From a virus (Duplodnaviria; Heunggongvirae; Uroviricota; Caudoviricetes): a DNA stretch of 17,968 bases. Below, one piece after another: positions 1,540 through 15,225 of this stretch (position 1 is its first letter; each line of letters begins with the position of its first letter). Position numbers and translations under genes: made by a program. A model generated the notes under the pieces. The model was not told where the DNA came from, ran no database searches, and saw nothing but the letters and a program-made list of their open reading frames with translations. The stretch is from the IMG/VR virus record IMGVR_UViG_2872185964_000004; one strand, 5' to 3'.

Positions 1540-2035
1540 GCAAATTGACTACACCATTAACTACACCGTTCGGTGCACCGTATGAAACAACGTGGAACAA
1601 ATAGACACAAGAAATATACAGGCGGATCATCTTTCCAGGGGAAGCGCACCAATTCATGAGGGGCGTTAATGTCTATATGGGGATCCCCACCTACCGGAAT
1701 TTTTTTCCGGTTAAACGTTAATCAGGCTGGTGGGCTTTACCTGTTCGGTAGGTGTTATGATTATCGTAATACCTTTCCCCAATGGGGTAAAAGCATCAAC
1801 CGTAACGAAAGTCGTTATGGTTGCCACTGATACCCCAAATTTGGGTATCACGAGTAAGCCCCAAAATCTGGGTGTTACTCTTACTACCCAAACTACGGGT
1901 AGTTTCCGTAGTTTCATGGTCGAGTTGCAGATCTGCAACTCCCCCATTAACCACAGGCGAATTTCCGCCTTCGGTCATTCCTTAATCATCTGCGTAATCA
2001 TAATGATTATTCAGCAAGCGCAATTTTGCGCTTTG
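1540..2035. other. Palindrome-dense non-coding tract between phoQ and the packaging operon (candidate att/pac/ori or structured RNA region)
   Basis: Direct repeats ACTACACC (1548-1555, 1560-1567). Perfect or near-perfect dyads: CGGTGCACCG 1571-1580, TGGGGATCCCCA 1678-1689, CCGGAA-ttttt-TTCCGG 1694-1710, TAACGA-aag-TCGTTA 1803-1817, CCCAAATTTGGG 1834-1845, AAACTACGG-7nt-CCGTAGTTT 1890-1914, GAGTTGCAGATCTGCAACTC 1922-1941, AGGCG-6nt-CGCCT 1955-1970, TAATCAT-a-ATGATTA 1995-2009, AAGCGCAA-tt-TTGCGCTT 2016-2033. The ORFs in the track here overlap each other on both strands and look non-coding. Confidence 0.6.
1584..1613 (+). repeat. Three 10-bp-phased GAACAA-type repeats (site A); shares the 15-mer AACAACGTGGAACAA with site B
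   Basis: GAAACAAcgt / GGAACAAata / GACACAAgaa at an exact 10-bp period; 1586-1600 is identical to 9045-9059. Confidence 0.55.
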
Positions 2036-2195
2036 CTTAAAGTTCAGCGAGTTACCGCGCCGACTTCCTCAAATTGAGGTTTCCGAAAATATCAGCGGGT
2101 TAGCGATTAAGCTGACCATTAATTAAACTGCGAAAATGTCGTAGTTGTGAGGGGTGTAGCCAACCCATTTTTGGGCCGTCGGGAATATCAACCAG

Positions 2196-2477
2196 TTACC
2201 GCCGCAACCGCTCCGGCTTCTTCCAGTGGTACGTTATTTTCTCCTTCTCCCGATACATCTCCACGCGGCGACGGTAGGCCAGCAACTCAAGAACTCTGGT
2301 TCGTATGTTGCGCATATCCACGCCATTAAGTTCTATACCATCACGGCGCATCACCTCAGCAACAACACGCGCATAGTTTTCGGCTGTCACGCTGTCCGGC
2401 TGCGTGGCCTGTTCGTCAGCCTGCTGGCTGATTCCGGCAACGCGGCGGATTAATCCCGTTATTTCGGCTTCTGTCAT
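2196..2477 (-). CDS. Hypothetical protein (93 aa), last gene of the head/packaging operon
   Basis: ATG at 2477 preceded by TGAGGT Shine-Dalgarno; starts 11 nt after the TerL stop; no recognisable motifs. Confidence 0.5.
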   Translation of the reverse strand: MTEAEITGLIRRVAGISQQADEQATQPDSVTAENYARVVAEVMRRDGIELNGVDMRNIRTRVLELLAYRRRVEMYREKEKITYHWKKPERLRR

Positions 2478-2490
2478 GCTGCTGACCTCA

Positions 2491-4152: not shown

Positions 4153-4492
4153 GCTCGTCCTCTTCTTCTGTTTCCGGTGGATTTTTACGGCGGCTTACCG
4201 GGTCAAAACCGAGCAAGGAGGCCATTTTTATCATCACTCTTTCAGCGTCGGATTTTGCGCTTAATGCGGGGTTTCTGCTCTCGCCGCCCTGACTGTTAAC
4301 AATGCTGAACCCGCGCGCCGCAAGGTCTGCGACGGCTTTGCGGTATATCGAGTAATTGACGCAATACAGTTCCAGATTGCTCCAGTCGGCGGGGGTCAGG
4401 TCTCCCCGTTCCGCAAGCTGCCGCGATTTTTCCCGCCACTGCTTCACGGCGATGTCATCCAGGTAGGCGGGGGCTTTCGGTGGTCTTGCCAT
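4136..4492 (-). CDS. terS: Terminase small subunit (P27-family-like)
   Basis: 118-aa ORF directly upstream of and overlapping terL; N-terminal basic region and acidic C-terminal tail (ETEEEDELDRLE) typical of small terminases; ATG at 4492. Confidence 0.78.
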   Translation of the reverse strand: MARPPKAPAYLDDIAVKQWREKSRQLAERGDLTPADWSNLELYCVNYSIYRKAVADLAARGFSIVNSQGGESRNPALSAKSDAERVMIKMASLLGFDPVSRRKNPPETEEEDELDRLE

Positions 4493-4613
4493 GCTTATTT
4501 TTCGTCAGATTATTTTTCAAAAAATTCCCGTGCATAAAAATTTGAGGAGGCGTTCGGTGCCCGGCGGGGTCGGGTTTGTCCTGAAAACGCCCCCACCCCG
4601 TCATACAGCCTCA

Positions 4614-4787
4614 TCAGCGATTGCGGAAACATTCCATAACCTCGCGGTCACGGTCGGTTAATCGCTTCGCTGTGATGCGTTCTGCGCGTCCTGACGCTTT
4701 ATCTTTATGCCCTGTTTCCTGTGTCTTCCATGCGTCACGCTGCCTTATAAGTCCACGGATAAGGCGGTTTTGTTCCCGCTCATTCAT
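4614..4787 (-). CDS. Putative small basic protein (57 aa) in the HNH-terS interval; uncertain
   Basis: ATG at 4787 overlaps the HNH stop by 4 nt (ATGAATGA). Product MNEREQNRLIRGLIRQRDAWKTQETGHKDKASGRAERITAKRLTDRDREVMECFRNR. The longer 134-aa ORF in the track overlaps HNH and is rejected. Confidence 0.25.
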   Translation of the reverse strand: MNEREQNRLIRGLIRQRDAWKTQETGHKDKASGRAERITAKRLTDRDREVMECFRNR

Positions 4788-5220
4788 CAGCGTCATACAT
4801 CCAGTTATTGCGGTTAGCGGCCCGTTCTTCCTCTTCACGAAATCCACCTGCGGCACGCTTGCTTTTTGTTGCCGGATCAAGCCACTTCGTTTTCTGGTTA
4901 TGACACGCCTGGCACAATGGCTGATGGTTCCATTCGGGCCAGAAGAGAACATCATCACCGCCATTAATCGGGATAATGTGATCCACCACCACGGCGGGCG
5001 TATATATCCCCTTCTCAAGGCATCGCACGCATAACGGGTTTTTACTCAGATACATGGCGCGGTATTTTTCCCACTGTCTGGAGTACCCACGCGCGCGGCG
5101 GTGTCCTCGTCTGGCATCCTCTGCACGCCATGCCGCCCGCCTGTGCTCCTCACACTTGCCGGACTTAACGCGCCTGTTACAGCCTGGTTCTGTACATCGT
5201 CTTAATGGTTGCCACGGCAT
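4780..5220 (-). CDS. HNH endonuclease (terminase-associated, HK97 gp74-like position)
   Basis: 146 aa; Cys-rich zinc-finger-like N-terminus (CTEPGCNRRVKSGKCEEH) and HNH core (VVDHIIPINGGDD...WNHQPLCQACHNQKT); sits directly upstream of terS as in cos-type HK97-like phages. Confidence 0.9.
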   Translation of the reverse strand: MPWQPLRRCTEPGCNRRVKSGKCEEHRRAAWRAEDARRGHRRARGYSRQWEKYRAMYLSKNPLCVRCLEKGIYTPAVVVDHIIPINGGDDVLFWPEWNHQPLCQACHNQKTKWLDPATKSKRAAGGFREEEERAANRNNWMYDADE

Positions 5221-5516
5221 CAGTACACCCCCACATCACGGTAAGCCGTCCAGAGCGCGCCAATCGTCATGGGTACGCGCGTTTTTGCGTTATCCACTAC
5301 CAGCTGGCGATTCTCGTACAGGTGAGCGATAAACATCATGCAGCCAATCTTTATGGCTGGCGTGAACTCCAGCCCGTCATCAAAGCGCCTGCCTATATGT
5401 ATCTGGCACGCCTCAAGCGATGCGGCAATGTATCCGCTGATTAACTGGTCTTCCTCGTCGCCATCGATGCGGCAATGGAGTTTCACTTCTTCCAGGGTGA
5501 TAAGTTCTTCTGTCAT
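5220..5516 (-). CDS. Head-tail connector / DNA-packaging protein (gp6-like, Phage_connect_1-type)
   Basis: 98 aa; N-terminal signature LITLEEVKLHCRIDGDEEDQLISGYIAAS typical of gp6-like connectors; its ATG overlaps the upstream stop (ATGA at 5513-5516). Confidence 0.72.
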   Translation of the reverse strand: MTEELITLEEVKLHCRIDGDEEDQLISGYIAASLEACQIHIGRRFDDGLEFTPAIKIGCMMFIAHLYENRQLVVDNAKTRVPMTIGALWTAYRDVGVY

Positions 5517-5851
5517 TTTTCCGCGCCCTCACGACAAAGAATTTCAAGGCGTGTCCTGGCGGCATCCGGCAGCGGTTGCCCGATGATATTCAGTACACGC
5601 CCCGCCAGCGGCCCCGTATTGACCTTTATCCGGCTGGTGGCGTTGATGTCCTTCCGGTACCGTATCCAGATCCTTACGGTACCAATCGCCAGCTCTGCAC
5701 CCGATGAAATGGCCTCCTTGCTGCTGATCATGTTCACGCTTGCCCAGAGTGTGTGACCGTCCTCCCACGTTTCGAGTATTTCGCCGGTTATATCCCTGGT
5801 CTGTTTCAGGGTCTGAATCGTTACCCTGTCACGCAGTCGCCCTATGTTCAT
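5513..5851 (-). CDS. Head-closure / head-tail adaptor protein
   Basis: 112 aa starting MNIGRLRDRVTIQ (head-closure family N-terminal signature); its ATG overlaps the portal stop (ATGA at 5848-5851). Confidence 0.72.
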   Translation of the reverse strand: MNIGRLRDRVTIQTLKQTRDITGEILETWEDGHTLWASVNMISSKEAISSGAELAIGTVRIWIRYRKDINATSRIKVNTGPLAGRVLNIIGQPLPDAARTRLEILCREGAEK

Positions 5852-7059
5852 TCCGGCTTTTCTCCCTCGCTGATTTTTACTTCCTGTTTCCATGCCTGGC
5901 TGAACTCATCACCACCATCACGCGGGGACAGCCCTTCACGTTCGCGGGCTTCGTTCGGGCACATAACGCCGGATTTGATGCCGCGTTCATAGGTGGCAAA
6001 GCGTTCGCCAGGTGTGGCCCGTAACAGGTCCGCGCTGTCAAACTCCACCTGATACCGGATACCAGGTACAGGTGAGGCCACCAGCAGGGCGTTTTTTATC
6101 TGCTGCTCAAAGTTCGCCAGCCACGGGCGCATCGTCATGGTGAGAAATGCGCGGCTTGCCTCGCTGAAATTGCTGTAGGTGCTGTTGCTGTATTCCTGCA
6201 GAAAAATCGGCGAGACGTTGAACATTCGGGCGATGTCTTCAATGGTGAAGCGACGGGAGGCCAGCCATTCAGCATCCTGATTACTCATGCCCAGCTGCTG
6301 ATAGCTCATACCCCCTTCAAGGATGGGCGTTTTTCCGGCGTTTCTGGCCCCTTTGTAGCGTTCCAGTGCGGCTAATGCCTGTTTGCCCTTCACGCCGTCC
6401 AGCCATTCGCCTGACGTGATAACCCCTGCCGCCATCATGCCATCACGCATCACGCTCGCGCCGTGGCGCTGTTGGGCCAGCCCAAGCCCCAGCGATTCTC
6501 GGCAGATGGTTACAGGTGAGCGCCCCATAAAACCGTCATCCGTGGAGTAACGAAGGTGGAGAACCTCCCACGGTAAATAGTTGCGGGTGTTTCCGGTGTA
6601 GGCGTCAGTGATGCAGTAGCGCCAGTTATGCTCACCTGTCTGCTCAACGTTCACCGACTGCGGCGGGTAAGGATGCAAAGCGACCGGAAAACCATCACGC
6701 CCCCACTGAATCACCGCATAAGCATTACCGTTTAACAGGCAGTGGCGGATCATCATTCGCTTAAACTGGTAGGGGGTTTGCCATGCGTTCGGGCGCTCGT
6801 TGAGGATGTGATCGACCGGATGAGAATCAAGCCACTCGCGGGCCTCCTTCCCCTTCTCATTGCGTACCAGGTACAGGTAACACGGCATGGTAGCCACCGC
6901 CTCAGAGATGACCGTCACGGCATTCATGACGGCGGGCAGTGATTCCGCTGTCCCCGATGATACGTACTCACCCGCCCCCGTGTTCGATGTGCCAGCCAGC
7001 GCCATAAACTCATCAAGCGTCATGCTGCGCTGCTCTTTTTTTCTTCTGAAAGGCCACAT
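5848..7059 (-). CDS. Portal protein (HK97-family)
   Basis: 403 aa, typical portal size and composition; ATG at 7059 lies 1 nt after the protease stop. Confidence 0.88.
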   Translation of the reverse strand: MWPFRRKKEQRSMTLDEFMALAGTSNTGAGEYVSSGTAESLPAVMNAVTVISEAVATMPCYLYLVRNEKGKEAREWLDSHPVDHILNERPNAWQTPYQFKRMMIRHCLLNGNAYAVIQWGRDGFPVALHPYPPQSVNVEQTGEHNWRYCITDAYTGNTRNYLPWEVLHLRYSTDDGFMGRSPVTICRESLGLGLAQQRHGASVMRDGMMAAGVITSGEWLDGVKGKQALAALERYKGARNAGKTPILEGGMSYQQLGMSNQDAEWLASRRFTIEDIARMFNVSPIFLQEYSNSTYSNFSEASRAFLTMTMRPWLANFEQQIKNALLVASPVPGIRYQVEFDSADLLRATPGERFATYERGIKSGVMCPNEAREREGLSPRDGGDEFSQAWKQEVKISEGEKPE

Positions 7060-7060
7060 A

Positions 7061-7519
7061 TCACACCCCCGCTAAATCCGCCCACCAGCGGCGATTATCC
7101 GCACGCGGCATTTTTTCGGGGTGCTGCTCATACAGGGAACGGCGGGCCAGCTCCACGTCGGAATCAGGGTAAGCCGGTACGGATGTAACGGTAATTTCGT
7201 ACAGTTCCGCCACCAGCACGGTGCGCACGCATGGATCTGTTGTGGTATCCCATACATCCTTACGGGAACGAAAGCCAAAGCTCATGCCGGATATATCACC
7301 TCGTTTAACCAGTTCGATAACGTCGCGCCCTGTACTGGTATCCGGTGGGGTCAGTTCAAAGCGTAACCCTGTTTCGTCCTCTTCCAGTTTCAGCGTGCCG
7401 GAACGGGTGCGCCCCAGTAACATGCTGTGGTCATGCTCATACAGGCCGCGAACGTCATTACCCGCCGCAAGCCATTCAGTAAACGCCCCCCGCTGGAATT
7501 TTTCGTAAAACTCACCCAT
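7061..7519 (-). CDS. Prohead protease (HK97 family, S78 peptidase); N-terminus apparently displaced into another frame
   Basis: 152-aa ORF with protease core motifs (GEFYEKFQRGAF, HDHSMLLGRT, GTLKLEEDETGL, SFGF). The expected N-terminus (MKSMEIRSSEITTSGAGTLTGYIVCWDKLSELL) is encoded in a different frame at 7520-7617. Confidence 0.85.
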   Translation of the reverse strand: MGEFYEKFQRGAFTEWLAAGNDVRGLYEHDHSMLLGRTRSGTLKLEEDETGLRFELTPPDTSTGRDVIELVKRGDISGMSFGFRSRKDVWDTTTDPCVRTVLVAELYEITVTSVPAYPDSDVELARRSLYEQHPEKMPRADNRRWWADLAGV

Positions 7520-7641
7520 AACAGTTCTGAAAGCTTATCCCAGCAAACAATGTAGCCCGTCAGCGTACCGGCTCCGCTGGTGGTGATTTCCGATGACCGG
7601 ATTTCCATACTCTTCATAATTTTTTCACCCATAAAACACTA

Positions 7642-7661
7642 AAGGGGCTTTTAAGCCCCTT
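7642..7661 (-). terminator. Stem-loop between the major capsid and protease genes (possible attenuator or mRNA stabiliser)
   Basis: On the minus strand: AAGGGGCTT-AA-AAGCCCCTT followed by TTTAGTGTTTTAT, in the 39-nt gap after the capsid stop. Confidence 0.35.
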
Positions 7662-7671
7662 CTGTATGCTG

Positions 7672-8829
7672 TTAATCGTCGTCCTGTGGCAGTTCCAGAA
7701 TCTTGATCGCGTTCGAATCCACCACGCCACCGCCTAAATATTTCTGCGCGAAAATTTTGATGAAGCCCGGCTCTGTGAGGTTGTCCGGTCTGGTGCGAAC
7801 ACCTGTTTCGTGATCAACAATGTAGTAACCGCGTTTGAAGTCACCCAGGGCAATAACGTTATCCGGCATAAACTCCAGATATTCGACCGGAAGGCCCAGC
7901 AACGTATCAGGATCACCCGCCTGTAAACGGTCACGCCAGATGTAATCACCGTTCGCGTTCTTCACCTTCTGGAGTTTTGCCGCCGTCGTGGAGTTAACCA
8001 CCCAGACCGCGTTTTTGCGGTATTTTTTACGTAATGCAAATTTCAGGTCGATCAGCGGGTCCGCAGATGTCCACGCCAGAGATTCGGAAGGTTTAATTAC
8101 CTGCAACGTACCAAAATCACGCTCTTTGTCGTTCTTCTCTGCACGGGGTACGGATAAAAAGCCTTTTGCTTTTTTGTCACCGTCGCCCACAACCAGATCG
8201 CTTTCTTCGGTTTCCGTGAAGGTGTCGCCAATCTCGCCCGTCAGCCATGAAAGGATGTCCACATCGGAAAAATCCACAATTTCCTGCGTGGTGCGCGGGT
8301 ACGCATAGACCGGATACAGCTTAATGCTCACCTCGTTAATCTGCGGGGTGCTGGTCTGTTCGCGTGCCTTACCCTCTTCACCGTGGTTAACGGTCGCACC
8401 GCCAGCGGAAACAAGCTGCTTAAACTCGTTGCTGCTGATTTTCTTCACGGTACAGATGCGGCGCATGGTGGATTCATCCGTCAGCATTCGCATGATTTCG
8501 GTGTTCAGTTCGGGGATAACGGTATAACCACCATCAGCGGGAACGCCTGTACTCAATGCGCGGGTTTCACCTGTCAGAATGTAGTGACGTAGTTCGGCGG
8601 GGTCAGTGGTCTGGCTGTTTTTGCCTGGTTTACTGCGCTCTTCGTCAGCAACGGCCTCAAGGCGGGAGATGTCTTTATCGAGTGATTCAGCTTTAGCGCG
8701 TAATTCGTCAAATTTTGCGCCCTCAGCATCGTTAAGGCTGCGGTTTTCTTTTTCCGCGTTCTCCAGCATGTCGCGCATCTGATTTTTAATGGCGGTTTTC
8801 TGCTGGCGTAATTCGATTATTCTCGGCAT
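7672..8829 (-). CDS. Major capsid protein (HK97 fold) with N-terminal coiled-coil delta/scaffold-like domain
   Basis: 385 aa from the ATG at 8829 (MPRIIELRQQKTAIKNQMRDM...); charged helical N-terminal ~100 aa followed by a capsid-like body; the track ORF begins 16 codons earlier at a non-ATG start. Confidence 0.88.
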   Translation of the reverse strand: MPRIIELRQQKTAIKNQMRDMLENAEKENRSLNDAEGAKFDELRAKAESLDKDISRLEAVADEERSKPGKNSQTTDPAELRHYILTGETRALSTGVPADGGYTVIPELNTEIMRMLTDESTMRRICTVKKISSNEFKQLVSAGGATVNHGEEGKAREQTSTPQINEVSIKLYPVYAYPRTTQEIVDFSDVDILSWLTGEIGDTFTETEESDLVVGDGDKKAKGFLSVPRAEKNDKERDFGTLQVIKPSESLAWTSADPLIDLKFALRKKYRKNAVWVVNSTTAAKLQKVKNANGDYIWRDRLQAGDPDTLLGLPVEYLEFMPDNVIALGDFKRGYYIVDHETGVRTRPDNLTEPGFIKIFAQKYLGGGVVDSNAIKILELPQDDD

Positions 8830-9040
8830 AAAAAAAGTCCTGAAGTTAAGTAAGGAACTCCAGGACGCGGCAAACACTCAACCGTTTTTCATAAGGAAAT
8901 CAGCAATCGCACCGATCGTTTTCCCGCCTGGTAATGAATATTGGCGAGCACATTAACAGGCGGGAAAGTGGCCCCAGCGTCCTGGCACCACGGGCGAGAA
9001 TAATCATGATTCAGTTCGGGTAAAATATGCCGATCCGGTC

Positions 9041-9070
9041 AGCGAACAACGTGGAACAACCACGAACAAA
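9041..9070 (+). repeat. Three 10-bp-phased GAACAA repeats (site B) in the promoter region of the head operon
   Basis: GAACAA at 9044-9049, 9054-9059 and 9064-9069; 15-mer AACAACGTGGAACAA at 9045-9059 is identical to site A; lies between the terminator and the capsid gene. Confidence 0.55.
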
Positions 9071-9086
9071 TAATTTACAAAACATG

Positions 9087-9109
9087 ACAAAAAGCCGGAT
9101 TGCTCCGGC
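9087..9109 (-). terminator. Rho-independent terminator closing the replication/early operon
   Basis: On the minus strand: GCCGGA-GCAA-TCCGGC (perfect 6-bp stem, GNRA-like loop) immediately followed by TTTTTGT. Confidence 0.65.
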
Positions 9110-9116
9110 TGTGTGA

Positions 9117-9389
9117 TTATCTGTCCTGGTAATTTCGCCATATTTCATCACCAGCACCATCCATACCCATTTCGGCATAAGTGCGATCGACCGCCTTTTT
9201 CAGGTCTCCGTAATTATCCGGCGGCTCCGGTGGCCTCTGTGCCTTCCTGGAACATTCCAGCCGTCGCATCGTGATGTGATGCCGTTCCTTGTCTGTCTCC
9301 ACCAGTTGCATGACTTCACCCCATCGCGCCGACGCTCTCCGGTAAAAGCCTTTCGCCTCCAGTTCTTCCGCTATGCGGTCATGTACCAT
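9117..9389 (-). CDS. Hypothetical small protein (90 aa), possible regulator
   Basis: ATG at 9389 with GAGGGG Shine-Dalgarno (the track ORF starts at an upstream GTG); charged helical protein. Confidence 0.5.
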   Translation of the reverse strand: MVHDRIAEELEAKGFYRRASARWGEVMQLVETDKERHHITMRRLECSRKAQRPPEPPDNYGDLKKAVDRTYAEMGMDGAGDEIWRNYQDR

Positions 9390-9401
9390 CGTCCCCACCC
9401 C

Positions 9402-9812
9402 TCAGAACGGAATATCATCACCGTAAGGGTCATCGCCTCCCGCTGGTGGCTGATTACCCTGTGTGCCTGTGGTCTTGCGTCGGCTCCCACCAGGACGTGC
9501 CGCACGGGCACTGATTACGCTGTCTGCAATAACCTGATAACCCTGCCGCGTTTCCCCGTTCTGTCCGGTCCACTGGCTGACCTGCATCGTGCCGGATACG
9601 CTGGCAACGTCGCCTTTTTGATGTTTAGCCAGGAAGTCGGCCTGCTTACCAAATGCGATGACCGATAGCCATAACGTCGCCTGTCCATCCTGTGCCTGGC
9701 TGCATGGCAGCGATACCGCCATACGCGCCAGCGTCATCGGTGTACCCTTGCTGGTCTGTTTTACCTGCGGGTCGTCCACCAGCCGCCCGTAAGCTGCAAT
9801 TTGTGCTGTCAT
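9402..9812 (-). CDS. ssb: Single-stranded DNA-binding protein
   Basis: 136 aa; OB-fold-like N-terminus, Gly/Pro/Gln-rich linker and the diagnostic acidic C-terminal tail ...DDPYGDDIPF; ATG at 9812 with GAGGTGG Shine-Dalgarno. Confidence 0.85.
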   Translation of the reverse strand: MTAQIAAYGRLVDDPQVKQTSKGTPMTLARMAVSLPCSQAQDGQATLWLSVIAFGKQADFLAKHQKGDVASVSGTMQVSQWTGQNGETRQGYQVIADSVISARAARPGGSRRKTTGTQGNQPPAGGDDPYGDDIPF

Positions 9813-9821
9813 ATTGCCACC

Positions 9822-10112
9822 TCAGTGAAGCGATCCGGCGTTGTTCTTTTTCATCTCTTCCATCATTTTTTCAGTGAGCATTACGCACTGAAAACCCATG
9901 TTTTTGATGTCTACGGGTTTCATGCCTTTGTCAGTGGATATCACAGGCAGAATATCCTGATACACATCGCGGTCAGGGTAACTAAGCACACAAAGCGCCC
10001 ATGATGCCACGGGTGAGGATCCTTCGTCTGTTTCAACCCACCAGCCTGGTGTAGCTGCGCTTATTTGCTGAATCGTGATCCGTCCGTTGTGCTTGTAAAG
10101 TTTTTTCACCAA
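9822..10112 (-). CDS. Hypothetical protein (~96 aa)
   Basis: ORF with a non-ATG (TTG/GTG) start near 10109-10112; no motifs recognised. A separate 31-codon ATG ORF overlaps the upstream stop in another frame. Confidence 0.4.
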   Translation of the reverse strand: MVKKLYKHNGRITIQQISAATPGWWVETDEGSSPVASWALCVLSYPDRDVYQDILPVISTDKGMKPVDIKNMGFQCVMLTEKMMEEMKKNNAGSLH

Positions 10113-10124
10113 ATTTTGGTTCGC

Positions 10125-10376
10125 TCATGATTCCAACTCTCCGGTTTTAACGTTGATTGTTGTTACCTGTTCCGCTTCGGCAATCTCCCGTTCTGTCAGC
10201 GTGGCAAAGTTTGCCGCCGCCGTGGTCATGAATGCGCTTATCAGGTCGGGATGTTCCTTCGCGTATCCTTCCCGCGTGTGGCGGTCTATCATTCTGATTG
10301 CCACCTTTAAGGTGTGCTCAGTCATGTCTAACGCTTTATATTTTGGCTCTGTTCTGTCTCTGCGTTTTTGGGTCAT
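10125..10376 (-). CDS. Hypothetical protein (83 aa)
   Basis: ATG at 10376 with GAGAGG Shine-Dalgarno; the track ORF begins upstream inside the iteron region. Confidence 0.45.
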   Translation of the reverse strand: MTQKRRDRTEPKYKALDMTEHTLKVAIRMIDRHTREGYAKEHPDLISAFMTTAAANFATLTEREIAEAEQVTTINVKTGELES

Positions 10377-10388
10377 TTCTCGCAACCT

Positions 10389-10576
10389 CTCACTTTTTCG
10401 CCTCACTTTTTCAAGCGTCTCACTTCGTCGCAGTTGGGATTTTCGGTTTTTCTATGTGTGTGTTTCATAAGTATTTTTTTACCCCTCACTTTTGAGGATG
10501 TATACAGGTCGAAAAGTGAGGGGAGCGGGCTAATTTTGGCCCTCTTTCTACCCCCTCGCTTTTGCTCCTCACTTTT
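10389..10576. repeat. Iteron cluster (CTCACTTTT) with an embedded 12-bp inverted repeat; putative replication origin
   Basis: CTCACTTTT or variants at 10389-10397, 10402-10410, 10419-10426, 10485-10493, 10555-10563, 10568-10576. Inverted pair CCCCTCACTTTT (10482-10493) / AAAAGTGAGGGG (10512-10523) with an 18-bp spacer. Sits immediately 3' of the RepA-like ATPase gene. Confidence 0.5.
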
Positions 10577-11558
10577 ATAGCGGCGCTACATCATCCCCAT
10601 CGATACGAATAACCCCATCTTTTTCCAGCTTGTACAGCCAGCGCCGGAAGTTTTTCATTTCATACCCCAGCTTTTTCATGTCATCACGTAACAGCTGGAT
10701 CGTGCACTTGTCGCCGTTCTGTGTGCGTGAACGGATGCACCCCCATAGCGCGGTATGGTTTTCCGTCTTGTTCCCTGCCTCCTCTATGCGCTCCAGTTCA
10801 ACAGGAGGGCGCGGATCATCCACCACCACCAGCGACGTGATTAATTCACCGTCAGCGTCGGTAAAAAGCTCCACCACGCGTAAGTCATATGCGGCTTCTT
10901 TGAGTTCCTCCGCGTCCTTCATTTTGGTGCATGAGATAACCAGCGCTTCGCTTCCTGCGTCCTCCCTGCGTATCCGGTATTCAGCATCCAGCGAAGCACG
11001 AAATGCACTGGAGCCGCGCGCGCCTTTCGTCTCATCCTTGCCGGAATGGTGAACCACCAGCACCGTGGCCCCTGTGCGTCGTTTCAGTTCGTCACAACCA
11101 CGGATAAACGCCCCCATATCACGGGAATCATTTTCATCATTCCCACCAAAGCAACGCGCCAGCGTATCCAGAATAATCATGCGTACAGGTTTACCCGTTT
11201 CCCGCTCCACCTGACGGGCAGCGATAACCATTTCATCAACATCAAGCGGGGCAGCCGGAAAGATGGGGCGGTTTACCAGATACAGATTTTTCACCTGCTC
11301 ATCGTGCACAACCTCCCAGGCTTTTACACGACGCGGAACACCTATACCGCCTTCACCAACCACATAGAGAACCGCACCATGTGCAACCCTGCGGCCTCCC
11401 CACTGGCGACCAGTGGCAACATGGCACGCCCACGATCCGGCAAGGAATGATTTATAGGACCCGCTAGCCCCGTATATGCTGCATAGCGATACCGCCGGAA
11501 TAATCCCCTTAACCACGTAATCCAGTTGCGTGTCGTATCCGGTAGATCCAACGCTCAT
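10575..11558 (-). CDS. AAA_25 / RepA-like RecA-fold ATPase (replication helicase-like protein)
   Basis: P-loop GASGSYKS, Walker B IILDTL, and the HHSGK...RGSSAF motif characteristic of RepA/DnaB-like ATPases. Start placed at ATG 11558, which overlaps the upstream stop (ATGA at 11555-11558); an in-frame ATG at 11660 is the alternative. Confidence 0.75.
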   Translation of the reverse strand: MSVGSTGYDTQLDYVVKGIIPAVSLCSIYGASGSYKSFLAGSWACHVATGRQWGGRRVAHGAVLYVVGEGGIGVPRRVKAWEVVHDEQVKNLYLVNRPIFPAAPLDVDEMVIAARQVERETGKPVRMIILDTLARCFGGNDENDSRDMGAFIRGCDELKRRTGATVLVVHHSGKDETKGARGSSAFRASLDAEYRIRREDAGSEALVISCTKMKDAEELKEAAYDLRVVELFTDADGELITSLVVVDDPRPPVELERIEEAGNKTENHTALWGCIRSRTQNGDKCTIQLLRDDMKKLGYEMKNFRRWLYKLEKDGVIRIDGDDVAPL

Positions 11559-11974
11559 CGGTAGCGTGGTTTTTCGCTGGTGGTTTTTTTCTTCCACCGG
11601 CTCTTTCCCGCGCACCCGTTCCAGGTATTCGCGCCAGTTCTCCCGCATATGGCTGTGCATCCCTTCGGGTAATAATTCGCATCAGTTACACCCGCCGCCG
11701 CCAGCTTGTGCGCAATGGCATTAATATTTGATGGCCTGATGTGGCCTGCCTTGTACAGCCGGACACAATAGCGCCCCTCGTCGATGATTCTCAGGTCTGC
11801 CAGTTCATCCAGTTGATCATCAGCCAGCACAACGGGAGGCACATTATCGCCAGCCAGTCGCCCGTCCTGTTCCTGCCACTGTTTCGCATGTGCCCAGGCA
11901 TCACTACCCGCAAAAATAATGACTTCGGTCATCTTGTCGTAAGGCTGTTTTTTTAAGTTCGGTGCGCTTTTCAT
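11555..11974 (-). CDS. Hypothetical protein (139 aa), co-translated with the ATPase
   Basis: ATG at 11974 overlapping the upstream stop (ATGA at 11971-11974); no confident motif. Confidence 0.5.
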   Translation of the reverse strand: MKSAPNLKKQPYDKMTEVIIFAGSDAWAHAKQWQEQDGRLAGDNVPPVVLADDQLDELADLRIIDEGRYCVRLYKAGHIRPSNINAIAHKLAAAGVTDANYYPKGCTAICGRTGANTWNGCAGKSRWKKKTTSEKPRYR

Positions 11975-12270
11975 TTCTTGCCCCTGAATCCGTTAATCAT
12001 GGTTTTCAGCTTCTGGATGTTTGCCCGTGCCCTGGCGTTGCTGGTGGGCACGTTATGCGGCGCGGTCTGTACCAGAGAAAAATCACGCCGGAACTGATAA
12101 ACAGACATCACGCAATCATATTCGTAACCTTCACGGCGGTAGGTTACACGCCGTTCTTCCACGCCCTTAATCATTACCGTGCCGCCGTACTGGTCGCGGT
12201 AAATATCACCGCGCGTAAATTTAGGGTGAGTGTTGCCACTGGCAGTTAAGCCAGAATATTTAAGTTTCAT
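11971..12270 (-). CDS. Hypothetical protein (99 aa)
   Basis: ATG at 12270 with GGAG upstream; basic protein. Confidence 0.5.
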   Translation of the reverse strand: MKLKYSGLTASGNTHPKFTRGDIYRDQYGGTVMIKGVEERRVTYRREGYEYDCVMSVYQFRRDFSLVQTAPHNVPTSNARARANIQKLKTMINGFRGKK

Positions 12271-12275
12271 TATTT

Positions 12276-12509
12276 TTATTCTCCGGTGTGCTGTTCTTTA
12301 TATCTGTCGTGCAATAGATCTATTTCTTGCAGTTCCATTATTACAGGCTCAAGAAGCGTTATTAATGCCGTGGCAATTCTTGATTTTTGTTCGTCGCGTT
12401 CATTGTCGCCAAGTGTTTCAAGCCATATGCGCAATATTTCCAGCATGTTTTCACTGTGAGAAAGTGCAAGAAATGCGCGGTCTATTGTTTCGTGGTAAAT
12501 ATCACGCAT
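12276..12509 (-). CDS. Hypothetical protein (77 aa), first gene of the replication operon
   Basis: ATG at 12509 with GAGGA Shine-Dalgarno; the IS1 composite is inserted 76 bp upstream of this start codon. Confidence 0.5.
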   Translation of the reverse strand: MRDIYHETIDRAFLALSHSENMLEILRIWLETLGDNERDEQKSRIATALITLLEPVIMELQEIDLLHDRYKEQHTGE

Positions 12510-12576
12510 GGCTTACATCCTCAGGAAATTTTCTTCTGTAACGCGCCTCTGCCACATATTCCGCATAATCGGCGGC

Positions 12577-12585
12577 GATATTCAG
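12577..12585. repeat. 9-bp target-site duplication GATATTCAG (left copy)
   Basis: Identical 9-mer directly abuts the outer IS1 ends at 12577-12585 and 14098-14106. Confidence 0.85.
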
Positions 12586-13329
12586 GGTGATGCTGCCAAC
12601 TTACTGATTTAGTGTATGATGGTGTTTTTGAGGTGCTCCAGTGGCTTCTGTTTCTATCAGCTGTCCCTCCTGTTCAGCTACTGACGGGGTGGTGCGTAAC
12701 GGCAAAAGCACTGCCGGACATCAGCGCTATCTCTGCTCTCACTGCCGTAAAACATGGCAACTGCAGTTCACTTACACCGCTTCTCAACCCGGTACGCACC
12801 AGAAAATTATTGATATGGCCATGAATGGCGTTGGATGCCGGGCAACTGCACGCATTATGGGCGTTAGCCTCAACACGATTTTACGTCACTTAAAAAACTC
12901 AGGCCGCAGTCGGTAACCTCGCGCATACAGCCGGGCAGTGACGTCATCGTCTGCGCGGAAATGGACGAACAGTGGGGATACGTCGGGGCTAAATCGCGCC
13001 AGCGCTGGCTGTTTTACGCGTATGACAGGCTCCGGAAGACGGTTGTTGCGCACGTATTCGGTGAACGCACTATGGCGACGCTGGGGCGTCTTATGAGCTT
13101 GCTGTCACCCTTTGACGTGGTGATATGGATGACGGATGGCTGGCCACTGTATGAATCCCGCCTGAAGGGAAAGCTGCACGTAATCAGCAAGCGATATACG
13201 CAGCGAATTGAGCGGCATAACCTGAATCTGAGGCAGCACCTGGCACGGCTGGGACGGAAGTCGCTGTCGTTCTCAAAATCGGTGGAGCTGCATGACAAAG
13301 TCATCGGGCATTATCTGAACATAAAACAC
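12586..13329 (+). mobile_element. IS1 copy 1 (744 bp, lacks the right terminal inverted repeat)
   Basis: Begins with the IS1 left inverted repeat GGTGATGCTGCCAACTTACTGAT; contains insA, the A6C frameshift motif (12892-12898) and the insB frame; ends at ...AACATAAAACAC and is directly abutted by copy 2. Confidence 0.93.
12641..12916 (+). CDS. insA: IS1 InsA (copy 1)
   Basis: 91-aa product [22 protein letters not shown]...[11 protein letters not shown] start. Confidence 0.93.
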
Positions 13330-13356
13330 GGTAATGCTGCCAACTTACTGATTTAG
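12868..13356 (+). CDS. insB: IS1 insB reading frame (copy 1), expressed as the InsAB' transposase by -1 frameshift
   Basis: insB frame with transposase motifs. An in-frame TAG at 12865-12867 lies upstream of the frameshift site, so the fusion is unaffected. The C-terminus is altered (...[12 protein letters not shown]) because the frame runs into copy 2. Confidence 0.8.
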
Positions 13357-13384
13357 TGTATGATGGTGATTTTAAGGTGCTTGC

Positions 13385-13660
13385 GTGGCTTCCATTTCCA
13401 TCAGATGTCCTTCCTGCTCCGCTACTGAAGGCGTGGTGCGTAACGGCAAAAGCACTGCCGGACATCAGCGCTATCTCTGCTCTCATTGCCGTAAAACATG
13501 GCAACTACAGTTCACTTACACCGCCTCTCAGCCCGGTACGCACCAGAAAATCATTGATATGGCCATGAATGGCGTCGGATGTCGCGCCAGTGCACGCATT
13601 ATGGGCGTTGGCCTCAACACGGTTTTACGTCACTTAAAAAACTCAGGCCGCAGTCGGTAA
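13385..13660 (+). CDS. insA: IS1 InsA (copy 2)
   Basis: 91-aa product [22 protein letters not shown]...; A6C frameshift motif at 13636-13642. Confidence 0.93.
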
Positions 13661-14082
13661 CCTCGCGCATACAACCGGGCAGTGATGTGATTGTCTGCGC
13701 TGAAATGGACGAACAGTGGGGCTACGTCGGTGCTAAATCACGTCAGCGCTGGCTGTTTTACGCGTATGACAGGATACGGAGGAGGGTTGTGGCGCACGTC
13801 TTCGGTGAACGCACTCTGGCCACACTGGAGCGTCTTCTGAGCCTGCTGTCGGCCTTTGAGGTCGTGGTATGGATGACGGATGGCTGGCCGCTGTATGAAT
13901 CACGCCTGAAGGGAAAGCTGCACGTTATCAGCAAGCGTTACACTCAGCGCATTGAGCGACATAATCTGAATCTGAGACAACATCTGGCAAGGCTGGGACG
14001 GAAGTCACTGTCGTTCTCAAAATCGGTGGAGCTGCATGACAAGGTCATCGGGCATTATCTGAACATAAAACACTATCAGTAA
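13579..14082 (+). CDS. insB: IS1 InsB (copy 2)
   Basis: 167-aa ORF ending ...HYLNIKHYQ, the canonical InsB C-terminus. Confidence 0.9.
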
Positions 14083-14097
14083 GTTGGAGTCATTACC

Positions 14098-14106
14098 GAT
14101 ATTCAG
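14098..14106. repeat. 9-bp target-site duplication GATATTCAG (right copy)
   Basis: Matches 12577-12585 exactly. Confidence 0.85.
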
Positions 14107-14247
14107 TACATCAAGCCCGTTGATTTATATTCTCTCGTGGAAAGTAAGAAAAAAGCCGCTCTAATAAGTTCTGGCATTGACGAAAGCGCACCAGCCGCAT
14201 CATCAGGAACGCCGGAAAATTCCTGTTTCAGGGAATTAAAACGATCA

Positions 14248-14613
14248 TCACGCATGTTTACCCCCCTGAATGACCTGATAACCGCAACTGGTCAGCAACT
14301 CGATAAATTCCGGCAGTGTGCCGAAACAGCAATCATCACGCAGCCGTTCGCAGGATACCTCGACGCCGTTTTCGTAGTGACTCACCATACATCCGGTAAA
14401 ATGCAGATCATCATCGTGATGGCTCGTTGACGGCTTAATCAGTCGCGCACGTTCCGCCAGTTCTAGCAATGCTTCAACGCTTCCGGCAATTGCACCATCC
14501 GGCAGGTGATAATTACGCACTATGCGCCCGTTCTCCACATTGACCAGCAACTGCCCGGTAAATTTCTCGTCAAACTGAATGCTGTTAAGGTCAGAAATTG
14601 ACAGGTTATGCAT
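14248..14613 (-). CDS. Hypothetical protein C (121 aa), third gene of a small three-gene operon
   Basis: ATG at 14613 with AGGAGG Shine-Dalgarno, 2 nt after the stop of gene B. Weak, unverified resemblance to CbeA/YfjZ-type antitoxins (LVNVENGRIVRNYHLPDGA; ...SCGYQV). Confidence 0.6.
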   Translation of the reverse strand: MHNLSISDLNSIQFDEKFTGQLLVNVENGRIVRNYHLPDGAIAGSVEALLELAERARLIKPSTSHHDDDLHFTGCMVSHYENGVEVSCERLRDDCCFGTLPEFIELLTSCGYQVIQGGKHA

Positions 14614-14830
14614 GGTGCACCTCCTGCACATCAGCCATGATAATTTTTCCGGCCTTATCCAGTGCCTGATCGGCTTTTAGCTGCACAAATGCTAAATAAT
14701 GGAAGATGCATTCTGATTCTCTGGCTGCGTGTTTATGCGCCCTGTCAGCAATAACAGAAATATCAATCAGCGCATGCATTAGCGTTATGATGGCTTCGGC
14801 GGCTGCGTCCGGACGGGTGTTATTGCACAT
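14606..14830 (-). CDS. Hypothetical protein B (74 aa)
   Basis: ATG at 14830 with AGGAGG Shine-Dalgarno; overlaps the gene A 3' end by 11 nt. Confidence 0.6.
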   Translation of the reverse strand: MCNNTRPDAAAEAIITLMHALIDISVIADRAHKHAARESECIFHYLAFVQLKADQALDKAGKIIMADVQEVHHA

Positions 14831-15026
14831 GGCACACCTCCTGACGAATACGGGCAGCGAATACCATCACGCAGCCAGCCGGGGATTGCTGGCGTGCTTC
14901 CTGTTCGCTGGTGGCCTCGATGGTAATCACGCGCGGTTGTGCCGTGCTCAGGGCGATAAAACGCCAGATGTATTTATTCAGGTCGTGCGAGTCCCGCCCT
15001 TGCGGGTGTGTGGTATGATTTCTCAT
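14820..15026 (-). CDS. Hypothetical protein A (68 aa), first gene of the leftward operon
   Basis: ATG at 15026 with GAGG Shine-Dalgarno. This is the only credible part of the 333-aa track ORF 14820-15821, whose remainder crosses the operator region and is antisense to the RHH gene. Confidence 0.55.
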   Translation of the reverse strand: MRNHTTHPQGRDSHDLNKYIWRFIALSTAQPRVITIEATSEQEARQQSPAGCVMVFAARIRQEVCHVQ

Positions 15027-15123
15027 AGCTGCCTCGATACTTTCGCTATCGTTGGTGGTTAGAAGCCCGGTTAGTGTTAGCGCACTGCCGGGTTTCGTCG
15101 TTTCTGCACCTTGCGCCAACAAG

Positions 15124-15175
15124 GTGTTGAACACCAATTTAAACCCAGGTGTTAAACACGTCAAGTGTTGAACAC
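15124..15175. promoter_or_regulatory. Three palindromic operator-like sites GTGTT(G/A)AACAC in a divergent promoter region
   Basis: GTGTTGAACAC 15124-15134, GTGTTAAACAC 15149-15159, GTGTTGAACAC 15165-15175. A candidate sigma70 promoter for the RHH gene (-35 TTGAAC 15168-15173, 17-bp spacer, -10 CATACT 15191-15196) overlaps the third site. Confidence 0.6.
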
Positions 15176-15225
15176 TTATTTTTTTTCCTGCATACTGCAT
15201 TTGTTTTTTATGAGGGGTACACCAC

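What the first reader, a model, noticed from the sequence alone, without database searches (positions are those of the whole stretch)
14248..15026. Tightly coupled three-gene small-protein operon of unknown function (candidate accessory or conflict module)
Genes A, B and C (68, 74 and 121 aa) each have a strong Shine-Dalgarno and overlapping or adjacent stop/start codons, and are transcribed from the operator region toward the replication module. None carries a motif I can assign with confidence. C has a weak resemblance to CbeA/YfjZ-type antitoxins common in P4/CP4-type islands, but no toxin partner follows. Satellites often carry anti-phage or anti-helper cargo at such positions.
Basis: inference. 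Interest (0 to 1): 0.5.

Follow-up and report, generated by a model that had tools for sequence, protein, structure and literature searches.

The report
Leader genes of satellite replication operon
The three small genes are real, but they are the first genes of the long replication operon of a decayed phage satellite (a capsid-forming PICI) in E. coli: the first gene is a known Icd-like protein, the other two are swappable cassettes of unknown function, and an unannotated SymR-like antisense RNA probably gates the operon.

Summary
Three minus-strand ORFs (A 15026-14820, B 14830-14606, C 14613-14248) have Shine-Dalgarno sequences and overlaps of 11 and 8 nt. They are not a self-contained module. 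They head a longer coupled operon, A-B-C-D-E-DUF4222-RepA-SSB-PerC, of a capsid-forming PICI lying between phoQ and int. In this window the operon is broken by a tandem IS1 insertion and two frameshifts.

A is a clear Icd-like protein (NCBIfam NF033153, 69.8 bits), present in 1403 of 5426 complete E. coli genomes. B (phrog_5146) and C (a tandem Rem-like beta-beta-alpha repeat) are narrow, enterobacterial, under purifying selection, and of unknown function. They belong to a small set of cassettes that are shuffled between Icd-like and DUF4222/Rep, with at least 30 architectures in 95 loci. The suggested CbeA/YfjZ resemblance is not supported, and there is no match to any defence-system model.

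One result is new. Opposite the Icd-like leader and ribosome-binding site lies a conserved, unannotated antisense RNA of about 80 nt (15027-15106, + strand). It shows strong covariation, 37 G·U against 0 A·C pairs, a conserved extended -10, a hypervariable terminator hairpin, and a sub-threshold, reciprocal resemblance to SymR.

The most likely mechanism is an antisense-gated, translationally coupled early operon. The function of B and C remains inferred.

The parts
15136..15164 (-). Sigma-70-like promoter of the early operon (-35 TTGACG at 15164-15159, -10 TAAATT at 15141-15136)
   Evidence: Consensus scan, 9 of 12 matches, the only hit in 14800-15450. Its function is inferred.
15124..15175 (.). 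Three perfect palindromic operators GTGTTNAACAC (15124-34, 15149-59, 15165-75) bracketing the -35 and -10 elements and the transcription start
   Evidence: 3 matches against 0.01 expected by chance. The operator sequence changes from island to island. The binding protein is inferred to be the divergent YlcI/YnfO-family gene or AlpA.
15226..15423 (+). Divergently transcribed YlcI/YnfO-family small protein, a candidate operator-binding regulator
   Evidence: NCBIfam NF041551, 2.9e-16. It is conserved next to Icd-like in relatives. The regulatory role is inferred.
15027..15128 (-). 5' leader of the operon mRNA (about 100 nt), which carries the target hairpins and the SD of gene A
   Evidence: Sequence. 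The leader is conserved, with compensatory changes, across genera.
15011..15019 (+). Extended -10 element (TGgTATGAT) for the antisense RNA, lying inside codons 3-6 of gene A
   Evidence: TGnTAT(G/A/T)(A/C)T is retained in 87 of 87 close loci. Amino-acid-changing substitutions keep or improve the -10 element (TATAAT, TATTAT).
15027..15106 (+). Predicted cis-antisense sRNA of about 80 nt (SymR-like). It has a 5' hairpin complementary to the SD region of A, a conserved single-stranded linker UUGGUGGUUAGA, and a hypervariable GC-rich terminator hairpin followed by a U-rich tail
   Evidence: On 28 sequences, 96% of cells are paired and 12 of 16 pairs change on both sides, a result no shuffle reached (0 of 500). 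There are 37 G·U and 0 A·C pairs on this strand. MFE is -34.1 kcal/mol, z -4.44. The Rfam symR hit scores 29.8 bits, below the gathering score of 61. The covariance model R1 scores 96.8 bits here and finds K-12 symR in register. Transcription has not been shown.
14820..15026 (-). Gene A: Icd-like protein, 68 aa
   Evidence: NF033153, 1.5e-19. phrog_6196, 9e-46. PGAP annotates the same 68-aa product, WP_001403026.1. dN/dS 0.29.
14606..14830 (-). Gene B: 74-aa small protein (cassette family f2 / phrog_5146), function unknown
   Evidence: phrog_5146, 1.1e-45. 182 relatives, all E. coli 'hypothetical protein'. dN/dS 0.34. Present in 58 of 95 related loci.
14248..14613 (-). Gene C: 121-aa protein made of two Rem-like beta-beta-alpha units (cassette family f9), function unknown
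   Evidence: phrog_340, 1.7e-28. Family alignments A1 and A3. The AF2 model shows two beta-beta-alpha repeats at pLDDT 63.8. hhalign to K-12 Rem gives probability 74.8%. dN/dS 0.16.
14103..14255 (-). Gene D, 5' part (cassette f5): inactivated by a 1-nt deletion and cut by IS1
   Evidence: phrog_24341, 1.4e-24. Aligned to the intact 77-aa orthologue in L004.
12586..14097 (.). Two tandem IS1 copies inserted in D, with a 9-bp target duplication CTGAATATC (14098-14106 and 12577-12585)
   Evidence: Repeats and IS1 terminal inverted repeats. InsA/InsB ORFs. Junction sequence.
12502..12585 (-). Gene D, 3' part; its stop overlaps the ATG of E
12276..12509 (-). Gene E (cassette f3), 77 aa, unknown function
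   Evidence: ORF. Same gene as in L001 and L004.
11971..12270 (-). DUF4222 protein, always found immediately upstream of the replication protein
   Evidence: PF13973, 6.6e-24. Present in 73 of 95 loci as f1.
10575..11974 (-). RepA-family helicase gene, frameshifted by a 1-nt deletion near 11669 and therefore a pseudogene here
   Evidence: AAA_25, 1.6e-43. Aligned to the intact 466-aa orthologue.

Best explanation
Genes A, B and C are the promoter-proximal genes of the early (replication) operon of a capsid-forming phage-inducible chromosomal island integrated between phoQ and roxA. The operon runs from an operator-covered promoter, through a leader of about 100 nt, into a chain of small ORFs with overlapping stop and start codons. 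In order these are Icd-like A, B, C, D and E, then DUF4222, and the chain ends in the RepA helicase, SSB and PerC.

A belongs to the Icd family. The phage P1 prototype of that family blocks host cell division. B and C are two members of a small pool of interchangeable small-protein cassettes that satellites shuffle at this position.

I propose that expression of the whole chain is gated at the ribosome-binding site of A. The gate is a constitutively made, SymR-like cis-antisense RNA of about 80 nt, whose 5' end is complementary to the SD region. When transcription of the operon is induced by the helper phage or AlpA, the mRNA outruns the antisense RNA and A is translated. Translation then passes down the chain through the overlapping stop/start junctions to the replication proteins.

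Shown here: the ORFs, their junctions, their family memberships, the synteny, the cassette variability, purifying selection, and the covariation, strand bias and promoter conservation of the RNA. Inferred: that the antisense RNA is made and represses, that the junctions couple translation, that A inhibits division, and what B and C do. My best guess for B and C is early host- or helper-directed accessory proteins.

In this particular window the operon is broken downstream of C, so A-C may still be expressed while the replication function is lost.
For: Island context: int, AlpA, a Bro-N-like ORF, YlcI/YnfO, DUF4222, RepA, SSB, PerC, HK97 capsid, protease, portal, connector, HNH, TerS and TerL, flanked by phoQ. 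Intact relatives sit at the same phoQ/roxA site.

Operon continuity: relatives carry A-B-C-D-E-DUF4222-primase or RepA, with junctions of -11, -8, -8, -8, +5 and -4.

A: NF033153 at 69.8 bits. A is present in 1403 of 5426 genomes, against 511 for B and 347 for C.

Cassette shuffling: at least 30 architectures in 95 loci, built from f2 (B), f9 (C), f6, f5, f3, f8 and f11. A 240-aa fusion protein of the form Rem unit, B-like segment, Rem unit lies upstream of DUF4222 and a primase in another element.

Purifying selection: dN/dS 0.16-0.34.

Antisense RNA: covariation gave 96% of cells paired, 12 of 16 pairs changed on both sides, a result no shuffle reached (0 of 500). There are 37 G·U and 0 A·C pairs on the antisense strand. 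Folding z-score is -4.44. The extended -10 is conserved in 87 of 87 loci even where the amino acid changes. A U-rich tail follows the hairpin only on the antisense strand. One copy lies next to every Icd-like start, in 93 loci. The resemblance to SymR is reciprocal.

Against: There are no expression data, so the antisense RNA, its promoter and its repressing effect are all predictions. The simple terminator scan did not call its 3' hairpin, because the U tract is interrupted. The Rfam symR score is well below the gathering threshold (29.8 and 36.7 against 61).

No function can be assigned to B or C. There is no Pfam, NCBIfam or PADLOC hit, no PDB sequence hit, and no structural neighbour. The structural searches used only a moderate model (pLDDT 63.8).

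The Icd-like function rests on the family name and one preprint. Division inhibition by this protein is untested. Many related islands lack B and C altogether (18 loci have only f8), so neither is essential for the operon logic.
Confidence: 0.6

Rival explanations
1. B and C, with or without A, form an accessory conflict module, anti-phage, anti-helper or counter-defence, that merely rides in the early operon.
For: B and C are present in only a fraction of islands that share a near-identical A. The cassettes are shuffled, deleted and duplicated in frame. The families are tiny and restricted to enterobacteria (33 representatives among 1.84 billion). A related Icd-like/primase locus behaves as an abortive-infection-like system.
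Against: No PADLOC model matches any of A-E. The genes sit inside a core operon, translationally chained to the replication proteins, rather than in a terminal cargo position. In the preprint the likely effector was the Icd-like protein, and all six linked genes were needed for the phenotype. There is no direct phenotype for B or C.
Confidence: 0.25
2. B and C are replication-accessory or timing proteins of the satellite, for example partners of DUF4222/Rep or of the origin. An alternative version is that their main role is to be translated, so that ribosomes carry translation and anti-polarity from the gated A start to the Rep genes.
For: They always lie between Icd-like and DUF4222-Rep, with overlapping junctions. 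In-frame deletions and duplications are tolerated as long as the frame and junctions persist. The C-termini of A, B and C are dictated by the SD and ATG of the next gene.
Against: The cassette content does not track the Rep type. The same f2/f9/f5/f3 sets occur with P4-type primase, RepA helicase and a third primase type. dN/dS of 0.16-0.34 indicates selection on the protein sequences themselves. Many islands do without them.
Confidence: 0.12
3. C is a CbeA/YfjZ-type antitoxin of a degenerate type IV toxin-antitoxin pair.
Against: No hit to CbeA_antitoxin or any other Pfam family for C or 20 relatives at E<=1. No CbtA-like toxin follows, since the next gene is cassette D (phrog_24341). C is a Rem-like tandem repeat.
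Confidence: 0.02

Closest known systems
Gram-negative PICIs and capsid-forming PICIs (prototype EcCIEDL933; bioRxiv 10.1101/2022.09.08.507074)
   Same: The layout is int, alpA, a replication module and an HK97-type capsid, protease, portal, connector, HNH, TerS and TerL module, with no tail or lysis genes. The size is about 15 kb. Icd-like and YlcI/YnfO are listed as accessory genes of enterobacterial cf-PICIs (PMC13612085).
   Different: This copy is decayed: tandem IS1 in gene D, and frameshifts in D and in RepA. The literature I read does not describe the small ORFs between Icd-like and the Rep gene, or any RNA at the Icd-like leader.
Phage P1 immI operon (c4 RNA - icd - ant). From established knowledge: Citron & Schuster 1990; Riedel et al. 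1993
   Same: An Icd-family ORF is the first cistron. Its translation is controlled by a small RNA acting at its ribosome-binding site. Downstream genes depend on it through translational coupling.
   Different: P1 C4 is cut from the same (sense) transcript and acts in trans. Here the structured RNA is on the opposite strand (37 G·U against 0 A·C), and no Rfam C4 hit appears even at E<=10. The downstream genes are small cassettes plus replication genes, not an antirepressor.
SymE/SymR type I toxin-antitoxin-like pair of E. coli K-12 (PMC1891008; Rfam RF01809)
   Same: A cis-antisense RNA of about 77-80 nt whose 5' end is complementary to the SD or start codon of the target. The architecture is the same: a long 5' hairpin, a linker (UUGUGAUUAG against UUGGUGGUUAG), and a 3' hairpin with a GUGUU..GCAC loop. 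The model hits are reciprocal and in register.
   Different: The target ORF is Icd-like, not the AbrB-fold SymE. Scores are far below the Rfam gathering score. The 3' hairpin is hypervariable between islands. The RNA gates a whole operon rather than a single gene.
Antisense control of leader-peptide-coupled rep genes in plasmids (R1 CopA/CopT-tap-repA; IncB/IncI-alpha RNAI-repY-repZ). From established knowledge
   Same: The logic is the same. An antisense RNA blocks translation of a short leading ORF, and replication-protein synthesis depends on that ORF through coupling. Variable loops give specificity between co-resident replicons.
   Different: There is no sequence relationship. Here there are up to six intervening coupled ORFs, and the first one is itself a putative effector.
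ECOR61 prophage-encoded Icd-like/primase locus (bioRxiv 10.1101/2023.04.06.535777)
   Same: An Icd-like gene followed by linked small genes and a DNA primase. It causes growth arrest when triggered by a phage accessory gene.
   Different: That Icd-like protein has a long N-terminal extension, as in locus L005 here. I could not compare the sequences directly, so identity of the small genes with B and C is unknown.
Rem protein of the Qin cryptic prophage (E. coli K-12 b1561; Pfam PF27490 'Rem')
   Same: The ~40-residue beta-beta-alpha unit of C aligns to Rem (hhalign probability 74.8%, E 2.6e-5). PF27490 is recorded on C orthologues at 79-85% identity.
   Different: C carries two such units in tandem and sits in a satellite early operon. 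Rem itself has no known function, so the relationship says nothing about what C does.

Membership tests
Icd-like protein (NCBIfam NF033153 phage_ICD_like) | HMM score above the curated cutoff | tested here: met
   A scores 69.8 bits against a cutoff of 25, E 1.5e-19, covering profile positions 1-48 of 48.
Icd-like protein (NCBIfam NF033153 phage_ICD_like) | Inhibits host cell division when expressed | not testable with these tools
   Only the family name and a preprint on a related locus.
CbeA/YfjZ antitoxin (type IV TA) | Match to the CbeA_antitoxin family profile | tested here: not met
   No Pfam hit for C at E<=0.1, nor for 21 family members at E<=1.
CbeA/YfjZ antitoxin (type IV TA) | Adjacent CbtA-type toxin gene | tested here: not met
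   The neighbours are B (phrog_5146) and D (phrog_24341). Neither has a Pfam toxin hit.
C4 antisense RNA / P4 CI RNA | Match to the Rfam C4 model in the leader upstream of icd | tested here: not met
   No C4 hit at the gathering threshold or at E<=10, in the window or in L009.
C4 antisense RNA / P4 CI RNA | Structured RNA encoded on the same strand as icd and processed from the operon transcript | tested here: not met
   The wobble-pair asymmetry of 37 G·U to 0 A·C places the structured RNA on the opposite strand.
SymR (Rfam RF01809) | Score at or above the gathering threshold (61 bits) | tested here: not met
   29.8 bits in the window and 36.7 bits in L009. The reverse test with my model on K-12 symR gives 17.7 bits, E 1.7e-5 over 801 nt, in register.
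SymR (Rfam RF01809) | Cis-antisense to the SD or start codon of the regulated ORF, with its own promoter inside the 5' coding region | tested here: met
   The position of the hit is 15027-15099, abutting the ATG at 15026. The extended -10 at 15011-15019 is conserved in 87 of 87 loci. Transcription itself has not been shown.
SymR (Rfam RF01809) | The target is SymE (AbrB/MazE-fold toxin) | tested here: not met
   The target is an Icd-like protein.
Capsid-forming PICI | int + alpA + replication module + own capsid, portal, protease, connector and terminase genes, without tail or lysis genes, in about 15 kb | tested here: met
   The island spans roughly 1500-17968, between phoQ and int.
Capsid-forming PICI | Induced and mobilised by a helper phage through AlpA | not testable with these tools
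   This copy is probably defective, given the IS1 insertion in D and the RepA frameshift.
Rem family (Pfam PF27490) | Match to the family profile | tested here: inconclusive
   The model is absent from the local Pfam copy. Precomputed hits exist on the orthologues P0022 and P0024, and a faint one on P0207. hhalign of the C family against K-12 Rem gives probability 74.8%.
Known anti-phage defence systems (PADLOC-DB 2.0) | Any component model matched | tested here: not met
   No hit for A, B, C, D, E, DUF4222, YlcI/YnfO or the Bro-N-like ORF at E<=0.01.

The most novel reading that the evidence does not exclude
The Icd-like gene and its opposite-strand RNA form a previously undescribed SymR-like type I toxin-antitoxin-style gate. 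This gate heads the replication operon of a large share of enterobacterial PICI and P4-type satellites. Its hypervariable terminator hairpin (23 variants among 87 loci whose Icd proteins are at least 92% identical) acts as a specificity determinant, letting several satellites in one cell (up to 6 copies per E. coli genome) be gated independently, much as plasmid incompatibility RNAs do. The shuffled cassettes behind it, including B and C, are a fast-evolving toolkit directed at the host or the helper.
Probability: 0.4. Interest if true: 0.65.

Novelty: new variant of a known kind. Interest (0 to 1): 0.45.

Why it matters
Icd-like genes head the early operon of satellites found in about a quarter of complete E. 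coli genomes, yet the control of that operon in Gram-negative PICIs is described only at the level of AlpA. A conserved antisense RNA at the Icd-like ribosome-binding site would add a post-transcriptional gate. It could explain how a potentially toxic first gene is kept silent. It would also link SymR/SymE to satellite leaders in evolutionary terms, and it offers a reason why the leader hairpin diversifies. The cassette array between Icd-like and Rep is a compact, well-delimited place to look for new small effectors. One related locus already gives an abortive-infection-like phenotype. For annotation, the practical message is that these 'hypothetical proteins' are parts of one coupled operon, not a stand-alone module.

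Tried and rejected
(1) CbeA/YfjZ antitoxin reading of C: no profile support.

(2) B and C as paralogues, suggested because both hit phrog_2512: direct BLASTP found no similarity. phrog_2512 reflects fusion proteins such as the 154-aa B-D fusion in L002.

(3) PDB sequence searches for A, B and C: nothing meaningful. C's weak hits were to designed armadillo repeats at E>=0.007 over 23 residues.

(5) Exhaustive profile search for C: only 33 representatives, with no annotated distant relative.

(6) Rfam: no family reached the gathering score in the window. There was no C4/CI or IsrK hit. The int-alpA RNA motif was found in four related loci but not in this window.

(7) tblastn of A against 50,697 phage records: one hit only, an induced 16.5-kb element. 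A is therefore a satellite or island gene rather than a gene of bona fide phages, and P4 itself did not match.

(8) Literature searches for an antisense RNA opposite Icd-like genes, or for a division inhibitor in PICIs: nothing found.

(9) The simple terminator scan did not call the 3' hairpin of the antisense RNA. I still read it as terminator-like because a U-rich tail follows the hairpin in every variant, and only on that strand.
Full report
WHAT IS THERE. The window is an E. coli-type chromosomal island. phoQ lies at the left end (1-1461, + strand). Everything else of the island is on the minus strand.

From left to right on the map the island carries TerL (2491-4152), TerS, HNH, head-tail connector, head completion protein, portal (5848-7059), prohead protease and HK97-type capsid (7672-8877). 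Next come PerC (9117-9398), SSB (9402-9812), a RepA-type AAA_25 helicase (10575-11974), DUF4222 (11971-12270), a run of small ORFs, the region of the finding, a divergent YlcI/YnfO-family gene (15226-15423, + strand), a Bro-N-like ORF, AlpA (16191-16379) and a tyrosine integrase (16739-17968).

This is the gene set of a capsid-forming PICI (cf-PICI) as described for EcCIEDL933 (bioRxiv 10.1101/2022.09.08.507074). Intact relatives occupy the same phoQ/roxA site in complete E. coli genomes.

THE OBSERVATION. Each is preceded by GAGG or AGGAGG. The A/B junction overlaps by 11 nt and the B/C junction by 8 nt.

A fourth ORF, D, starts at 14255 with the same ATGCGTGA overlap, so the chain continues beyond C. 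In intact relatives it reads A-B-C-D(73-77 aa)-E(77 aa)-DUF4222-(P4-type primase or RepA helicase)-hypothetical-SSB. The finding is therefore the head of an operon of at least 7 genes, not a three-gene operon.

In this window D carries a 1-nt deletion. It is also split by two tandem IS1 copies (12586-14097) with a 9-bp target duplication. RepA has a 1-nt deletion near 11669. The element is decaying, but A, B and C are intact.

WHAT THE PROTEINS ARE. A is a clear Icd-like protein: NCBIfam NF033153, 69.8 bits against a cutoff of 25. PGAP gives it that name in the relatives.

B matches only phrog_5146 (unknown function). It has 182 relatives, all E. coli 'hypothetical protein'. The alignment indicates a two-helix protein, and some relatives carry in-frame internal duplications.

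C matches phrog_340. Its family is very small: an exhaustive profile search of 1.84 billion representatives found 33 proteins at E<=1e-3.

Alignments show that C is a tandem duplication of a unit of about 45 residues, roughly FTGxhhVxVxNGxV..LPD..S..hhELAxRAGYxV. Many relatives carry in-frame deletions between the two units or have only one unit. AlphaFold2 with the more diverse alignment predicts two beta-hairpin-plus-helix repeats (pLDDT 63.8).

The unit aligns to Rem of the Qin prophage (hhalign probability 74.8%, E 2.6e-5). The new Pfam family PF27490 'Rem' is recorded on C orthologues. Rem has no known function, so this relationship does not tell us what C does.

No Pfam, NCBIfam, PADLOC, PDB-sequence or fold-search result assigns a function to B or C. 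The CbeA/YfjZ idea fails the profile test.

All three frames are under purifying selection, with pooled pairwise dN/dS of 0.29, 0.34 and 0.16.

HOW VARIABLE THE LOCUS IS. By megablast, A is present in 1403 of 5426 complete E. coli genomes, at up to 6 copies. This allele of B is in 511 genomes and C in 347.

I collected 10 loci from other Enterobacterales and 80 IMG/VR loci whose Icd-like protein is 92-100% identical to A. I then walked the coupled ORFs downstream of Icd-like in all 95 loci.

Between Icd-like and the constant DUF4222-Rep pair lies a combinatorial array. It is drawn from a few cassette families: f2 (B), f9 (C), f6 (a one-unit version of C), f5 (D), f3 (E), f8 and f11. There are at least 30 architectures. 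Eighteen loci have only f8. Cassette content does not follow the type of Rep protein.

Junctions are always of the overlapping type. As a consequence the C-termini of A, B and C (QEVxHx, QGGKHA) are simply the next gene's SD plus ATG read in another frame. Likewise, the N-termini MRD... and MHN... contain the previous gene's stop codon.

A 240-aa protein from another element fuses a Rem unit, a B-like segment and a second Rem unit, and it sits directly upstream of DUF4222 and a primase. This hints that B and C act together.

THE REGULATORY REGION AND AN UNANNOTATED RNA. The operon promoter (TTGACG-17-TAAATT, 15164-15136, minus strand) is wrapped in three perfect GTGTTNAACAC palindromes, where 0.01 are expected by chance. 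In other genera the palindrome sequence changes. This fits a cognate repressor such as the divergent YlcI/YnfO-family protein, but that assignment is an inference.

The leader upstream of A is conserved across genera, with obvious compensatory changes. The only Rfam similarity is a sub-threshold hit to SymR, and it lies on the strand opposite to A. It scores 29.8 bits at 15027-15099 (+ strand) in the window, and 36.7 bits in an Enterobacter locus.

I aligned 28 distinct versions in that orientation. For a 5' hairpin plus a 3' hairpin, 96% of cells are paired. Twelve of 16 pairs show changes on both sides, no shuffle of 500 reached the observed values, and slid controls collapse to 33-50% paired.

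All 37 non-Watson-Crick pairs that are still standard pairs are G·U on the antisense strand. None is A·C, which is what a G·U pair on the mRNA strand would look like here. Selection is therefore acting on an RNA transcribed antisense to the Icd-like leader.

Several other features agree. The 80-nt RNA folds at -34.1 kcal/mol, z = -4.44. A U-rich tail follows the GC-rich hairpin only in this orientation. An extended -10 element (TGgTATGAT, 15011-19) sits 7-8 nt upstream of the predicted start, inside codons 3-6 of A. It is kept in 87 of 87 close loci, and the substitutions that change His4 to Tyr or Asn turn it into TATAAT or TATTAT.

A covariance model built from the alignment finds one copy next to every Icd-like start. 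With filters off, it also finds the annotated K-12 symR, in register and on the right strand (17.7 bits).

The 3' hairpin is hypervariable. There are 23 versions with 55% mean identity among 87 loci, while the 5' 40 nt are 91% identical.

No C4/CI-type RNA, the sense-strand regulator of P1 icd and P4, was detected.

MECHANISM PROPOSED. The early operon is controlled at two levels. Transcription is controlled at the operator-covered promoter. Translation is controlled at the SD of A by a SymR-like cis-antisense RNA. Translation that starts at A is then passed along the overlapping junctions to the replication proteins.

This is the same logic as P1 c4-icd-ant and as the antisense-RNA/leader-peptide/rep circuits of R1 and IncB plasmids. 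Those comparisons rest on established knowledge and were not tested here.

By family, A is a host cell-division inhibitor. A preprint reports that a prophage-encoded six-gene Icd-like/primase locus of ECOR61 arrests growth when a phage accessory gene is expressed, with the Icd-like protein as the likely effector.

B and C are best described as selected but dispensable cassettes of unknown activity. I rank the possibilities for them as follows: early accessory proteins directed at the host or helper, then a defence or counter-defence role, then a replication-accessory role.

VERDICT. As three 'hypothetical' genes the finding is ordinary: it is the annotated, widespread head of a PICI replication operon. 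The surroundings, however, yield two points that I could not find described. One is a covarying SymR-like antisense RNA opposite the Icd-like ribosome-binding site. The other is a combinatorial small-ORF cassette array. Both are computational inferences that can be tested directly.

Noticed in passing
window 12586-14097 and 14098-14106 / 12577-12585: Two IS1 copies in direct tandem are inserted in gene D, with a 9-bp target-site duplication CTGAATATC. The left copy appears shortened where it meets the right one.
   Followed up: partly
window ~11669 and ~14117: Single-base deletions frameshift the RepA helicase gene and gene D, relative to intact orthologues. The satellite in this window is probably unable to replicate.
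   Followed up: yes
window 14820-15821 (-): The frame of gene A stays open for 333 codons upstream, through the promoter and the YlcI/YnfO gene. This is why PGAP sometimes annotates a 135-aa 'Icd-like' protein (L001, L002). The 68-aa start with its SD is the plausible one.
   Followed up: partly
L005 3758-4224; L042 2676-2753 and 3421-3503: Some relatives carry a duplicated leader and Icd-like head. [quoted passage not shown] L042 has two copies of the antisense-RNA element and two YlcI/YnfO-like genes in tandem.
   Followed up: partly
L005 1117-1185, L006 618-686, L013 803-868, L014 1264-1329: The Rfam int-alpA RNA motif (RF02996) is present upstream in four related loci. It was not detected in this window.
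   Followed up: no
window 15707-16138 (-): A 143-aa ORF between AlpA and the operator region has a weak Bro-N / antirepressor-like match (Pfam E 0.009; PHROG Ant families E 1e-5). It may be part of the induction circuit.
   Followed up: no
window 15737-15767 and 15854-15892 (+): Two GC-rich hairpins followed by U runs lie downstream of the YlcI/YnfO gene. They were picked up only as weak chance-level Rfam hits (isrD, sau-6072). They look like intrinsic terminators for + strand transcription.
   Followed up: no
K-12 locus L095 5836-5912 (symR) compared with window 15027-15106: The symE leader/SymR and the Icd-like leader/antisense RNA share the linker and loop motifs (UUGUGAUUAG..GUGUUGGCGCAC against UUGGUGGUUAG..GUGUUAGCGCAC), although the downstream ORFs are unrelated. 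This suggests a portable antisense-controlled leader.
   Followed up: partly
L001, L002, L004 compared with the window, left halves: Near-identical early modules (A-B-C-D-E-DUF4222-Rep) are joined to different packaging modules. The relatives have capsid, decoration protein and TerS only, whereas the window has a full HK97 capsid, portal, protease and TerL set. The satellites are modular mosaics.
   Followed up: no
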